Shown here: in pieces, positions 12,001 through 48,000 of the stretch
Layout: every line of letters begins with the position of its first letter
Numbering within the stretch: position 1 is the stretch's first letter
Source: an uncultured Acidobacteriota bacterium
GTDB lineage: Bacteria; Acidobacteriota; Terriglobia; UBA7540
Assembly: GCA_963804995.1 (NCBI GenBank)
Contig: CAWDSK010000005.1
Location: 288,001-352,000 of the forward strand
Direction: 5' to 3'
Length of the DNA: 64,000 nt
Made by a program: the position numbers

Positions 12001-15000
12001 CACCATCGTCTGTAGAGGCGGAAGTTGTATCGTCGATCCTTTCGGCAATTTCCTGGCCGGACCGAACTACGACGGCGAAGTGATTCTCAGTGCCGAAATC
12101 GATCGCGCGCAAATCGTCCGGGGCAAGTTCGACCTCAACGTGGTGGGCCACTACGCGCGACCGGACATCTTCCAACTCCATGTGGACGAAACGCCGAAAC
12201 GGCCGGTAACTCTGCATGGCGTGGAAGCTGCGAATCCACCGGAACCTTCCCGCCACGACGATAATGAGGTGTCTGCTTGTGGCGACAAATGAGGGGGGTG
12301 TTTTAGCCGGGAGGTTGACGGATTAAGTGGGACCTCGCTCGCTATGCCCCGCGGAGACCAACATCTGGGACAGTTTCATAGCAGGATCACGCAACCCTTT
12401 TCCCCCCTATATCCATGACGAAAGATCATGATTGCCACGTCTTGAAGCGAAGGATGGGGCGCCGTCGCGAAGGTTGAATTTTCGACACATCAATGATTCC
12501 GCCTCCACTTCCGAGACGCCAGCCGAGGGCAAAAGTCATAAACCCGACTCCCCCAGCACTCATCCCTAGATAACCCGATCTGCCTCTCGTACCCTTCCGC
12601 GCACAATTGCGGGCTCCAAGCGCCGCTTCGCGTACGTATTTCAAACCCATCCCGCAAAACTTCAGCCTCGCCGTCAGGGTGTCCCAGGGCGCCACGGCGT
12701 GAGGTAAGTCACTTTTGGGCTACCGGTAGCCCAAAAGCGACGTCGTCCCGCCAGATAATTCATTTTTGGGCTACCGGTAGCCCAAAAGTGACGTTACCCT
12801 ATTGACATCATCCAGTATAGGGATGCTAATCTGTAAACGTGATGAGTGGCGAACCGACAACCCGATGGAATGTGCCTCGCGGCGGCCTGTCGGGAACCCT
12901 TCCGAATCAAAATTGGGACCTTTTTGCCGCGTGGTCGCAGGGTAATGGCGGCAGCCGCACCTCAAAAGCCGCTGCGTGGAGCGTCCTGCGGCCCTGTCAC
13001 GCCGTGTCCCAGCGTCCCACCCAAAGATTTATCGGACAGTTTTGCGTTGCCCCCTTCAGATTTGGGCTACCGGTAGCCCCGCCCTGCATTTTTGGGCTAC
13101 CGGTAGCACAACTGGTTAATTATTCTCTTGACAACACCCCATGCAGTAATGTTACCCTGTATATGTCATGAGCGACGTGTCCACCACCGGAACCAAACGC
13201 GAACGCCGAGGGGCCCCACCTGAGCAAGGCTCAGATCCGAGGGCGCCACGCATCCGCATTGAAGTTCCGCTGGGTACACCGTTCCAGGAGATTCAAGAGT
13301 ACGTTTATCGCCAAGCCTGGCAACTGGCCGGAACGCAGCTCAAGGCCGCGGTTTCTCTGGGGATCACCCCCGAAACGATTTCGCGGTTTTTAAAACGTTG
13401 TGAACGAGACAGGCTTGACTACCCCGGCGCTCAGACGCGTTGGGGCAAAGGCTGCCCGAAGGGGGCGCCGCTCGAAGCGGCGCTTACCCCCGCCCCGGAG
13501 GGCAGCGAAGACTCGACCCTTGTTTCCCCTGGTAAGTGGGGAGGGGAATAAGAGTCAAGAAGCGGCGGCGATCAGCCGCCAGAATTTAACCTATTGCTCG
13601 TACGGGACGCTGTGCGAGTGAGGGCGGCGGTGGGTGCACACGCTGCCGCTGCCCAAAGTGACCAGGCAACAAATACAATTTCTTCTCCGGGTCGCACCCC
13701 CGGCCCTCCAAAGCGAGCGCGAGTACGAAATCCCGGCCTGCATCACCCTGGCGCAAGCGATTCTGGAAAGCGCCACACCCAGGTTCGGCTGGGGAAGTTC
13801 CCGCCTGTTCCGCCTGGCGAATAATCCGTTCGGGATCAAGTACAGCCACAGGCCGGGGGTCGAAAGTCAAAAGTTGAAAGTTGAAAGTGCGCTTGAAAGT
13901 TCGAATTTGAAAGTTCAAAGCCAGGGCGCGGTTGTCAGCGCGGTTTCAACTTTAAACTCTCAACCTTTAACCTCTTCCCTCAACTCTCAACTTTCAACTT
14001 CCGCCCCCGAAGACTACGGCCACTTCGATGTGGCGACCTGGGAATTCATCAACGGGCAAAAGAAAGAAGTTTTTGCACAGTTTCAGCGCTTCCCCGACCT
14101 GACCGAGGCCTTCAAGGCGCACGCGCGGTTGCTTCTTTCGCCGCACTACCGGCCGGCGTACGAGGTGCGTCACGACTGGAAACAGTTTGCGGAGCGGCTG
14201 GGTCCTAAAAAGTCGCAGCAGGACACCGACCATTGTGGGTATTCCACAAACCCCAGCTACTCCGCCTTGCTTATTAATTTGGTTAATACCTATCGTCTGG
14301 ACGACCCCCGCGCACAAGAGTGGCTGTCAACCGGAAAGGATCCCGGTCCGGTGCTGGAGCAACTGTTGGCGTGATTAGACATAGCTATCAGCTATCAGCT
14401 TTCAGCTCTCAGCTAGGGCGTTGGCCCGAAGGGTGAACCCTGATACCTGAAAGGCGAAGGTTGAACGTTGATAGGTGAAAGCTGATGACTGAAAGCTGAT
14501 AGCTGAAAGCTGACGACTGAAAGCTGATGGAGGTCTTATGAAGTTTCGCAATCTTATTCTTGCAACGGTTTTAGGTATGGTCACTCTCAGCCTGGCCTGC
14601 ACGCCTCCTTCCTGGGCCGTGGAGGCGGAGAACATCGCCAAAGTGGCGCTCCCCATCGTCGAAGGCATTGCCACGATTGTGGGCGCGGGGCCGGCCGTTA
14701 CCCAGGTTGCAAATGACATCAATCTGCTTATCACCTTGTTTGATAGATACCAGTCCACACCAAGCGCCGGCGCGCTGCAGCAGATTCAGGCGGGCCTTGC
14801 CACCGCGAACGCGGATATCCAGCAGATTCTAGCCGCGACGCACATCCAGAATACGGCTACGCAGAACAAAGTGACCGCGATTCTCCAGCTTGTCTTGAGC
14901 GAGTTTTCGAGTATTGCAAGTCTGGTGCCAGAGGCAGTAGGCAGTGGGCAAAAGGCAGTAGGCAGCAAGCCGGCCCCGGAACTTCCGTTCACCGCCTCGC

Positions 15001-45000: not shown

Positions 45001-48000
45001 TCTAATTCCTTCACCTATGCTGCTGGTGATCTGATTCAATTCTCTGTGGCGAGTGGGGGCGCCGGCGAAACTTTGGCCAACGTCTCCTGTTCGGCTGAAG
45101 TTTGGGTCAGTGCTAACTGAATAGCTGGCGGGCGAGAGGAAGAGGACCCCCTTCACGACTTCACGGGGAGTGTCGGATGCGTATGACGGCATCACACATA
45201 GCCGTTGGGGTTGCCCTCTGGCTCGCCCCGCCGATTATCGCGCTTGAAGATGGATGTTGCATCGCCCCCACCCCTGTCGCACCTGACCCTCCTGCGCAAT
45301 CTGTCTCGGCTATACCATTAGATCATCGCTAAAGGCCTGCGGGATTATCCAACCAATAGATTGTTAATCCAGATAACAACTTAGGGTAGAAGTCGGTGGA
45401 TTTCTGTGGCAGGGGGCGGTCAGCCAATGCGTTGTCGCGCACCGCTTCCACCGGTGTAGGGTTAAGCAGGAATGCTACCTGGCCTCGGCCTTTTTCCACC
45501 TGTTCTGCCGCCAGAGGCAATTCACGGTAATACGACAAGTTTCTTTCCTCGCGTACGGCCAGTTGATCGATGCCAAGTAGCCGCTCGAGTACTAGGCGGT
45601 GCAGCAGGACCACGTCGAGTCGGCGCAGTGTTGGGGAGAGGTCCGAAAGCGCCCTGTCAAGATCGAATTCGCCGCGGAGACGCAGCAGTGCTAGTTTACC
45701 CGGCCCCGCATAGGCGGCGAGGGTCGGCCGCTCGAGGCCTGCCTCTCGGAGGCGCCGGAGGATTCGCCCTTCCCAACCGCTCGCCGGGGGTCGCACGCCT
45801 ACTTCTTCCCAATCGAACATAGCACGGGCATCGGAGGAGAATTTCGCCCAGTCGAAACCCGCAAGGTTGTGCACCAAGCGATGCGTGGGGAGGATGGTAA
45901 GGCCGTCTGTCTCCATGCGGATAAGAGTCACCATCAGGAATTCAGCGCGGTCGTCTAAGCGGTCGAGCGCACGGCAATGGTCGCGATAGGCGAGTGCCGT
46001 CTCGTAGCGATGGTGGCCGTCTGCGATGACGAGTTGCTTGTCCTTCATCGCTCCCACTACTTCCGCGAGGATCTTGGGGTCGCCGACGCGCCACACAGAA
46101 TGACGTGTGCCGTACTCATCAATGACCCGTTCCCATGGTTGGGACGAGGTGTGCAGGGCCAGCAGGTTTTCCACCTCGCCAGATGGGTCGCTATAGAGCA
46201 TGAATATTTGTCCGAAGTGCGCGCGAGTGGCCTTCAACAATTCCAGGCGATCGGCCTTGGGGCCTGAGAGCGTCTCCTCGTGCCGGTGCACAACCCGCGC
46301 TGCATAGTCTTCGAGGCGCAGCAGGGCAACGAAGCCGCGCCGTTGCTTTCGCATTCCGGGCTGGCCCGGCAGCTCATATTCCTGGTAATAAGGATAGATC
46401 GCCGGTTCGGCCTCGCCGGTGACCACGTCTTTCGCTATCCACTCGTGAAAATCGCGCGCTGCGCCCGCGTAGACCTTGTCCGCAGAGCCATCCTCCGGTT
46501 CCGTACGCCGGCGAATGATGCGCGCCAGATTGTGGGGGCTCATCTCGTAATAGCGCGACTGCATTTCTGCTGAAATCTTATCGTAGGGTTGCGTTACTAC
46601 GGCCGCGAGGGCAACGTTTTTACCCGGGTTATAATGGAACGCACGGAATGGGTGAATATCAGCCATGAGTATCTCATCCAATCGAATGGGAGTTGAATTC
46701 CTAAAACTATCATACCGCTCGCGATGCGTTGAGGCTTGTCGCAAAAGGGCGCACACAGAATGGAGACAGTCGGCGAGTCTGAGGGGCTTGTGGACGAATC
46801 TCATGCGCTGTCGACCGGATCGGCCACAACTAGGACAAGCCTCAGGTGAGATCTTTACTGCAAAACCAAACCTTGCCACACTCGGAACGGATGACACCCT
46901 TGGTAGGTTCTCAAGCAAACTGCTAGAATGGCAGGTTCTTGAATACTGGTGTAGCTTCTCCGGGTGGCCTTACACGCACCTGAGGCCGCGCTGAATACAG
47001 GCTCTCGTCCGAAAGGCCCGCGCCCATGGCTGAACTCCGCTTGGATTCCTTCACTCGCCGCTGGGTGGTCACCGGCAAGCGCCCGGTGATGCCGGATGTG
47101 CAGGACGCCAGCGGCTTGTGTCCCTTCTGCCCGGGCAACGAGCATCTGACCCCCCGGCCAATACGGGAGGTCCGGGGTGCAAGTGGCGCTTGGACGGCAC
47201 GCGTCTTTCACGATCGCGCCCCACTCTTCCTGGTGGAAGGTGGCGCCGATCGCCGTGCTGAGGGAATGTTTGACCGTATGAACAGCCTTGGCGCGCATGA
47301 AATCGTGGTGGAAACTCCCCGCCACGGTGAGACGCTGGCGCAAAGTCCGGAGGCTCAGATTACCCGCGTGTTGGAACTTTTCCGTGACCGTATCCTGGAC
47401 CTGAAGCAAGACCATCGCCTCCGTTATGTCTCACTTTTCAAGGATCAGCGTGCGCCGTCGGAAACGTTACATGGTCACAGCTACTCCCAGGTTGTTGCAA
47501 CTCCCGTGCTGCCGCAACTCCTGGAAATTGAATTCCGCTGGAGCCGTGCGCATTTCCTGAAGCGTGACCGCTGCCTTTACTGTGACGCCTTGCAGCAGGA
47601 TCTGCGGGAGGAGAAACGCGTCGTAGATCAGACTGCGGATTTCGTAGCGGTCTGCCCCTTTGCTTCGCGCTCGCCCTATGAGCTGTGGGTGCTGCCGATG
47701 CGCCATTCGTCCTCATTCGAAACCGATCTGGCGGAACCAGGGCGGACCGCTTCGCTTGCGCCCTTTCTCAAGTCCTGCCTTCAGAGGATGGAAAAGGTGT
47801 CGGAGACTCTCCACATGGTCGTGCATACTGAACCCAACTTGCAGGCTTGGAAGCACACCCAAGACTGGTGGACAACCCTGCGCGATGATTATCATTGGCA
47901 CATCGAGATTCAACCGGATGTTGAGGGGCAGCGCCGTTTTCTGGGCCCCGGAGGTTTCCACTTTAATCCCATCCCGGCTGAGCAGGCCGCGCTGGTGCTG

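What a model noticed while it worked through the whole genome (the two positions that open the first line are those of the whole stretch)
13168..45120. Family-wide domesticated Mu-like virion module (gene-transfer-agent candidate) inherited vertically in Acidobacteriota f [...]
A 32-kb one-strand block (g03399-g03431) of endolysin, terminase, portal, head protease, major capsid and tail genes, with no integrase, transposase or replication gene found, is a host-owned module kept in one copy and passed down vertically across family UBA7540. It has the genomic marks of a gene transfer agent rather than of an ordinary prophage.
Evidence so far: PHROGs names endolysin, TerL, portal, protease, major head and tail proteins and no integration or replication function among the 32 module proteins scanned; Pfam on 22 module proteins and 21 ORFs from the left arm in 5 relatives also found none, only Mu gp27. 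The capsid protein is found in 109 of 132 family genomes (27 of 30 genera), as a single match in 98 of them, almost all without stops, against 2 of 104 other Terriglobia. In 7 genomes of 6 other genera among 10 examined, the module lies directly beside dtd, in 4 with the DUF5666/OCD genes on the far side; in this genome that site (C5:149.7-150.7 kb) is empty and the module has moved. Capsid and gyrB trees of 31 genomes share 19 of 28 s [...]
(Added by a program. Inside this text positions count along the whole contig: contig position 288,001 is position 1 of the stretch shown here. "Call 12" and the like, gene names such as g00115 and contig names such as C1 are that model's own, and its searches are not shown. 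The text may have been shortened before it was handed on; [...] marks where a part breaks off. The agent that wrote the report below was given it as the finding of a first reader that could run no searches.)

Follow-up and report, generated by a model that had tools for sequence, protein, structure and literature searches.

The report
Domesticated Mu virion with transposon satellites
A whole family of soil bacteria keeps a stripped-down, host-owned copy of a phage's particle genes that probably packages host DNA, and small jumping elements in its relatives carry parts shaped to hijack that particle.

Summary
The 32-kb block is real: the lysis-head-tail ('late') half of a Mu-like siphophage with no transposase, in 109 of 132 family genomes by capsid search. 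It is fixed beside dtd in 7 genera, under purifying selection, and diverges at the host's synonymous rate. Against true Mu-like prophages of the same family it shows three derived marks: a half-length tape-measure-position gene (median 276 versus 561-738 aa), a portal lacking a 300-aa C-terminal domain, and a hub with an N-terminal extension found in 59 of 72 family genomes and 0 of 328 other Terriglobia. Inheritance is vertical within genera but not strictly between them: genes are swapped with phages. New here: the extra capsid copies in this genus belong to about 10-kb Mu-type transposons (MuA/MuB, 5-bp target duplications) without terminase, portal or tube, carrying a mimic of this module's scaffold tail, often a long tape measure, sometimes a capsid. 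They look like satellites of the module or of its phage kin. Best reading: a gene-transfer-agent-like particle (0.55); PBSX-like killer is the main rival. No particles, packaged DNA or expression shown; this assembly's TerL and portal are interrupted.

The parts
13168..13551 (+). small HTH-like protein, first module gene in genus g1 (possible regulator; inferred)
   Evidence: weak HTH hits E 0.01; conserved in 6 of 7 g1 left arms
13634..14374 (+). endolysin (glucosaminidase), g1 type, shared with Mu-like prophages (30-41%)
14538..17424 (+). lysis-region genes 14538-15089, 15195-16379 (phrog_19005, repeat insertion), 16487-16834, 17059-17424; holin/spanin roles inferred only
17354..17704 (+). 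phrog_436 protein preceding TerS (Mu gp26-like label recalled)
17824..19049 (+). small terminase (18459-19049) and two short paralogues of its N-terminus (17824-18108, 18186-18458)
   Evidence: orthologues hit Phage_Mu_Gp27 and phrog_426; paralogy
19505..21100 (+). large terminase; one in-frame stop at codon 254 in this assembly; ATPase and nuclease motifs present
   Evidence: single ORF in 8 of 11 g1 relatives
21283..23080 (+). Mu-type portal without the phage C-terminal domain; frameshifted in this assembly
   Evidence: single ORF in 11 of 11 complete g1 relatives
23246..24856 (+). two variable head-accessory genes
24837..26357 (+). Mu I-like protease-scaffold; its last 50 residues are mimicked by satellites
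   Evidence: PF10123
26532..27035 (+). conserved gene before the capsid (decoration protein inferred)
27205..28185 (+). major capsid protein
   Evidence: phrog_1005 E 6e-68
28273..30301 (+). head-tail joining genes (28273-28620, 28722-29012, 29107-29640, 29729-30301; roles by position)
30398..31186 (+). tail tube protein (lead plus position)
   Evidence: ESM Atlas Phage_TTP_17 0.85, lead only
31267..31833 (+). tail assembly chaperone (by position)
32047..32877 (+). short tape-measure-position protein, 276 aa
   Evidence: between chaperone and Dit-position gene, Ala-rich, homologous to 561-738-aa phage genes at that place; no library hit
32894..33346 (+). distal-tail-position protein
33768..38939 (+). 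hub-like protein with family-specific N-terminal extension and a LamG-like insertion
39012..40264 (+). two conserved tail-tip genes
40177..45120 (+). variable tail fibre (inferred)
   Evidence: mosaic matches among g1 genomes

Best explanation
The block is the late half of a Mu-like transposable siphophage that was domesticated once in the ancestor of this family. It lost transposase, MuB, repressor and ends, stays at a fixed host site, and is kept by selection. It most likely builds a short-tailed, headed particle in a subpopulation, fills it by headful packaging with host DNA (no replicating phage genome exists to be preferred, and TerS is relaxed), lyses the cell and delivers the DNA to kin, working like a gene transfer agent. 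Single genes or blocks are exchanged with circulating Mu-like phages. About 10-kb Mu-type transposons in relatives act as satellites: they multiply by transposition and carry a scaffold-tail mimic, a long tape measure and sometimes a capsid to remodel this type of particle. Shown: gene content, site, selection, derived characters, satellite anatomy and insertions. Inferred: expression, particle, host-DNA packaging, transfer, hijacking.
For: No transposase in or near the module; left arm starts 28-828 bp from dtd with lysis genes, then TerS; no full MuA in this genome. Fixed flanks in 7 genera and, in g1, the DLH gene 6.5-11 kb beyond the tail-tip gene in 12 of 12 genomes where both share a contig. 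dN/dS 0.04-0.34 for structural genes in 5 genera and module dS close to rpoB dS. TerL motifs kept; TerS least constrained, 0.44 and 0.33 against 0.10 for the capsid. Tape-measure gene 197-344 aa in 46 residents against 561-738 in 5 of 5 phages; 9 of 9 IMG/VR contigs with the hub extension also have the short form. RcGTA's is about 216 aa with a 49-nm tail (PMC7296036). Satellites: 5-bp duplications at 6 of 6 insertions; g1-type scaffold-tail ORF in 12 of 14 g1 satellite loci, matching only g1 residents and one viral contig; satellite marker in 29 of 132 genomes, phage-type portal domain in 11.
Against: No particle, packaged DNA or transfer is shown. This assembly's TerL and portal are interrupted. 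Deep phylogeny conflicts with the host. No shift to carbon-cheap residues against phage homologues. PBSX has the same genomic look and kills instead of transferring (PMC12946183). A viral contig (L108) carries a g1-type head with a phage-type portal, so satellites may target such phages instead; 2 of 8 satellite tape-measure ends match phages best. No conserved activator was identified.
Confidence: 0.55

Rival explanations
1. PBSX-like killer: the particle is made and may hold random host DNA but acts as a bacteriocin against related strains.
For: Fixed, selected, lysis-bearing module; highly variable fibre; PBSX packages 13.4-kb host fragments, does not inject them and acts as a tailocin (PMC12946183 passages).
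Against: All head and packaging genes are under selection as strong as the tail; satellites that mimic the scaffold gain only if DNA is delivered.
Confidence: 0.17
2. Split phage: module and mini-Mu elements are two halves of one mobile system; the module is kept mainly as the helper that the transposons need.
For: The satellites hold what the module lacks: MuA, MuB, Ner-like and repressor genes, long tape measure; capsids are sister clades.
Against: The satellite marker is in 29 of 132 genomes and 8 genera, the module in about 108 and 27 genera; selection is equally strong in g10 and g30, where no satellite marker was found.
Confidence: 0.1
3. Anti-phage decoy: module proteins poison assembly of incoming Mu-like phages (short tails, altered heads).
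For: Related Mu-like prophages circulate in the family and share genes with the module; short tape measure and trimmed portal could be dominant negatives (inference).
Against: A complete particle plus lysis cassette and fibre is kept, far more than interference needs.
Confidence: 0.08
4. Ordinary, slowly decaying or repeatedly reacquired prophage.
For: Stop and frameshift here; resident capsids are not one clade against phages; three different sites within g1.
Against: No transposase or ends; same site across 7 genera; dS near 1 with dN/dS near 0.1; hub extension family-wide and absent from the prophages examined.
Confidence: 0.04
5. Non-genetic use: particle as carrier of a surface-degrading or adhesive hub and fibre, DNA being incidental.
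For: Large family-specific hub extension of unknown family.
Against: TerL motifs and portal conserved.
Confidence: 0.06

Closest known systems
RcGTA-type gene transfer agents (Rhodobacter capsulatus)
   Same: Chromosomal head-tail cluster without replication genes, lineage-wide, short tape measure (about 216 aa), large multi-domain hub, tail genes shared with phages, TerS of reduced specificity (PMC7296036, PMC7947584, PMC8601537 passages).
   Different: No RcGTA homology found; Mu-type portal, protease and TerS; lysis genes and fibre inside the cluster; different phylum; activity untested.
PBSX of Bacillus subtilis
   Same: Defective resident phage-like element that packages host DNA (PMC12946183 passages).
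   Different: PBSX is a killer that does not inject; contractile tail (recalled); here a non-contractile layout with no sheath gene found.
Mu-like transposable siphophages (RcapMu type; prophages in G119, G122, G071)
   Same: Gene order, Portal_Mu, Mu-like_Pro, gp27 TerS; interleaved gene trees.
   Different: Module lacks MuA, MuB, Gam and repressor, has a half-length tape measure, trimmed portal and extended hub.
Phage satellites: SaPI/PICI (CpmB), cfPICI, P4
   Same: The mini-Mu elements are about 10 kb, lack tail tube and lysis genes, carry a scaffold C-terminus mimic as CpmB does (PMC5644958 passages) and sometimes their own capsid as cfPICI do.
   Different: Described families all have integrases, and tail genes are 'forbidden' in their models (PMC10085698 passages); these use MuA/MuB, insert at many sites, lack terminase and portal, and carry tape-measure and chaperone genes.

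Membership tests
gene transfer agent | particle genes encoded in the chromosome without self-replication or integration genes | tested here: met
gene transfer agent | lineage-wide retention at a stable site under purifying selection | tested here: met
gene transfer agent | vertical descent with the host | tested here: inconclusive
   met within genera (8 of 8), conflicts between genera
gene transfer agent | particles package random host DNA, too little to carry their own genes | not testable with these tools
   needs virion DNA sequencing; head size unknown
gene transfer agent | DNA is delivered and recombined in recipients | not testable with these tools
   needs transfer assay
gene transfer agent | host-controlled expression | tested here: inconclusive
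   no repressor or activator in the dtd-site left arm; g1 has HTH and zinc-finger neighbours of untested role
RcGTA family (alphaproteobacterial) | homology to RcGTA head-tail genes | tested here: not met
   library hits are Mu-type; hub has no PDB sequence match
Mu-like transposable prophage | MuA and MuB in cis | tested here: not met
   absent from module and, for MuA, from this genome; present in prophage copies
Mu-like transposable prophage | terminal repeats and 5-bp target duplication | tested here: not met
   only a chance-level 9-mer shared by the module's junction regions; satellite ends do not match the module
phage satellite (mini-Mu elements in relatives) | own mobility genes and recent multi-site insertion | tested here: met
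phage satellite (mini-Mu elements in relatives) | lacks genes for a full particle but carries helper-matched assembly genes | tested here: met
   no TerL, portal, tube or endolysin in 16 of 16 loci; scaffold-tail ORF in 12; several loci are cut by contig ends
phage satellite (mini-Mu elements in relatives) | transfer in helper-derived particles | not testable with these tools
   needs induction and virion sequencing
P4-like satellite | Sid/Psu protein | tested here: inconclusive
   285-aa coiled protein: Atlas neighbour Psu 0.82, lead only; 0 of 77 homologues hit Psu; fold searches generic
PICI / cfPICI | integrase, primase and terminase genes | tested here: not met
   MuA/MuB instead; no TerL

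The most novel reading that the evidence does not exclude
A gene transfer agent independently evolved from a Mu-like phage in Acidobacteriota is itself parasitised by a new class of transposase-based satellites, which raise their share of randomly packaged DNA by replicative transposition and re-engineer the host's particle (scaffold mimic, own capsid, long tape measure) into their vehicle.
Probability: 0.35. Interest if true: 0.93.

Novelty: new variant of a known kind. Interest (0 to 1): 0.8.

Why it matters
It would add an independent, Mu-derived origin of GTA-like particles in an abundant soil and peat lineage, with ancestor-type phages still circulating beside it, so the changes of domestication (short tape measure, trimmed portal, fused hub, relaxed TerS) can be read gene by gene. 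The satellites would be a transposase-based kind not found in my searches and give indirect evidence that such heads are built in nature. In practice the module is already being counted as virus: 9 IMG/VR contigs carry the resident form.

Tried and rejected
No RNA holder listed; laying four low-share peat runs did not cover the TerL or portal breaks usefully, so error versus real lesion is open. Single-sequence fold of the tube failed (pLDDT 33); tube alignment found nothing in PDB or Pfam. The 285-aa satellite protein folded well (pLDDT 81) but matched only generic helical hairpins and no PDB sequence; Psu/Sid identity not accepted. The phage portal C-terminal domain is not confirmed as MuF (best 'head morphogenesis' E 0.019; blank). 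phrog_296 was useless as a MuB count (rings in 104 of 132). First rpoB tree was spoiled by wrong-frame picks and rebuilt; G025 was dropped as too short and G054, G073, G103, G001, G007, G004 had no usable rpoB. Carbon-cost bias not found. Transposition of this genome's module: no ends or duplication found. Independent origin of the g1 module considered and judged less likely: its hub nests among residents and its former left neighbours lie 14 kb from dtd. Satellite protein not found in IMG/VR with one query. Earlier-findings look-ups were empty.
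Full report
1. Observation. The window holds a plus-strand block from 13,168 to 45,120 with endolysin, large terminase, portal, head protease and major head hits between ordinary host genes. G+C (55-62%) and third-position G+C (0.63-0.81 against 0.64-0.75) match the host. No integration or replication family was hit. Module profiles match only this window in the genome, satellite MuA/MuB queries find nothing, and the Mu transposase family gives four short partial matches only. 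The capsid count reproduces: 109 of 132 family genomes, 27 of 30 genera, one match in 98. TerL has one in-frame stop at codon 254 in a linker that differs in every relative, and the portal one extra base. TerL is one ORF in 8 of 11 and the portal in 11 of 11 same-genus relatives where complete; the host selB in this window is also split, so assembly error is plausible but unproven.

2. Three kinds of element. I fetched module regions from 55 other family genomes and 24 further loci (table). (a) Resident modules: same gene order in every genus. (b) True Mu-like prophages: the second capsid copies in G119, G122 and G071 have MuA and MuB upstream; G051 has a MuB-like gene, MuA not seen. (c) Mini-Mu elements (section 6). 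G018's only capsid is of kind (c), so the resident count is at most 108.

3. Marks of domestication. Site: dtd lies directly left of the module in 7 of 7 long non-g1 regions and 2 shorter ones, 7 genera; DUF5666 lies right in 7 genomes. The left arm there begins 28-828 bp from dtd with endolysin-, holin- and spanin-like genes, then the phrog_436 gene and TerS (labels weak): no room for early genes. In this genus the main site is different: the DLH gene lies 6.5-11 kb past the tail-tip gene in 12 of 12 genomes where both share a contig, of 17 with DLH. The two closest relatives share another pair of flanks; this genome keeps that left block 14 kb from dtd and the right block on another contig, while the module has two new flanks and no ends or duplication. 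So it moved, probably by host rearrangement. Selection: median pairwise dN/dS 0.04-0.34 for structural genes in five genera, with dS similar to rpoB (g1 0.72-1.29 against 0.95). TerS is least constrained: 0.44 (0.29-0.62) and 0.33 (0.23-0.46) against 0.10 for the capsid; fast TerS change also occurs in phages (own knowledge), so this is suggestive only. Derived characters: the gene between chaperone and Dit positions is 197-344 aa (median 276) in 46 residents with one ORF, 561-738 in 5 of 5 phages; it is called tape measure by position and composition, with no library hit. Six phage portals share a roughly 300-aa C-terminal domain that no resident ORF matches; its profile finds 11 of 132 genomes, the four strong ones being its own members. 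The hub's N-terminal part is in 42 fetched residents and no phage-like locus (two of these loci end before the hub), in 59 of 72 family and 0 of 328 other Terriglobia genomes sampled. All 9 IMG/VR contigs with it have the short tape measure, 2 with DUF5666: residents filed as viruses.

4. Inheritance. A nine-gene tree and rpoB share 23 of 45 splits among 48 genomes (shuffles at most 3); 8 of 8 multi-member genera are monophyletic; but 10 of 31 well-supported module splits conflict, and inter-genus distance correlation is 0.41 (capsid alone -0.02). Phage copies nest among residents: G051's in g5, G071's beside g15, viral contig L108 inside g1. AU tests reject resident capsids as one clade (p 1e-43) and the host group g1+g5+g18 for the capsid, and rpoB rejects g5+g14 and g30+g17+g19+g22 (p 0.002 each; one marker, simple model). 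In g1, head, tube, TerL and endolysin group with phages while the hub groups with residents. Reading: one domestication, vertical within genera, repeated gene exchange with phages in unknown direction.

5. How it probably works. With TerL motifs, portal, capsid, tail and lysis genes conserved and no way to replicate its own DNA, a particle made from this operon should be filled with chromosomal DNA. [quoted passage not shown] RcGTA's tape measure is about 216 aa for a 49-nm tail and delivers DNA to the periplasm (PMC7296036, passages), which the 276-aa gene resembles in size only. All of this is inference. PBSX shows that such a particle can instead kill (PMC12946183, passages). Regulation is unknown: an HTH gene opens the g1 module, and a zinc-finger and an XRE gene flank it in relatives but stayed behind in this genome.

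6. The satellites. The 79-84% capsid copies in g1 lie in elements with MuB, MuA and a Ner-like gene facing a repressor, an HTH gene, a small ORF, a 285-aa coiled protein, then optional capsid, chaperone and tape-measure genes. In G023 the element is about 9.9 kb; copies are 99.5-100% identical (one error-rich copy 98%), end TA...CA, and all 4 junction pairs in G025 and 2 in G023 show 5-bp duplications (contigs break inside the elements, so pairs are matched by the 5-mer). None of 16 loci has TerL, portal, tube or endolysin (some are cut by contig ends; one TerS-profile hit in a G025 locus was not examined). The small ORF is a free-standing copy of the last 50 residues of the g1 protease-scaffold in 12 of 14 g1 loci, six of them without a capsid; that profile hits only g1 residents, L108 and these ORFs. 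SaPI CpmB works by such a shared C-terminus (PMC5644958, passages). Intact satellite tape measures are 522-697 aa, and 6 of 8 C-termini match g1 residents best. Satellite capsids are the sister clade of g1 capsids (99/89). The 285-aa gene is in 29 of 132 genomes, 14 of 28 in g1, not in this one; only 16 loci were examined. The helper may be the module, L108-like phages, or both; satellites often occur without a resident helper (PMC11389934, passages), so co-occurrence does not decide.

7. Comparison and novelty. It works like a GTA by genomic criteria but is not an RcGTA-family member and fails Mu-prophage membership. Described satellite families all carry integrases and exclude tail genes (PMC10085698, passages). 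Searches for a GTA in Acidobacteria, a Mu-derived domesticated element and transposable or mini-Mu satellites listed no such report; the library lacks most subscription papers. A 2018 survey of 24 acidobacterial genomes mentions only prophages (PMC5900883, passages); PMC8987985 and PMC8601537 were read as passages and PMC12135933 as abstract; no supplements were read. Tallies include genomes flagged unpublished (G032, G110-G116); no other claim rests on them.

8. Verdict. Observation confirmed; domestication about 0.9; GTA-like function 0.55; strict family-wide verticality not supported; satellites real as elements, their helper unproven. Interest 0.8.

Noticed in passing
L048:12699-20000, L051:1-5329 (G023); L055, L057-L059, L103-L106 (G025); L061-L065, L092-L101: Family of about 10-kb Mu-type transposons with scaffold-tail mimic, 285-aa coiled protein and optional capsid, chaperone and tape-measure genes; 5-bp target duplications.
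   Followed up: yes
L088+L213, L091+L214, L090+L216, L089+L215: Complete or near-complete Mu-like prophages related to the module; G122's portal carries an inserted histidine-phosphatase domain.
   Followed up: partly
L108: Viral contig with g1-type capsid (90%) and portal core (72%) but a distant TerL (37%) and phage-type portal tail.
   Followed up: partly
window 49960-51952 and 2412-6696: selB is split into two overlapping frames; the outer-membrane barrel ORF at 5176 matches only the second half of its family. Possible long-read errors.
   Followed up: no
window 15620-15900, 19530-19660, 20232-20312, 21205-21290: Low-complexity, partly palindromic repeat insertions inside and between module genes; relatives carry different in-frame insertions at the same places; one occurs at 41 genome loci.
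   Followed up: partly
L226 (G000 C5:132.5-136.2 kb): XRE gene and small zinc-finger gene that flank the module in G014 and G020 stayed behind when it moved in this genome.
   Followed up: partly
G087, G098, G131, G118, G122, upstream of the first module gene in the first three: Tandem 9-bp repeats shared across genera g21, g25, g30; possible operator.
   Followed up: no
G017 C22:60509-62237: Second, frameshifted copy of the hub extension (55%) outside the module.
   Followed up: no
L034:14341-18966 (G020): A 1,541-aa fibre-like gene inserted between portal and protease.
   Followed up: no
window 62361-62434: tRNA-Met gene, 17 kb from the module.
   Followed up: no
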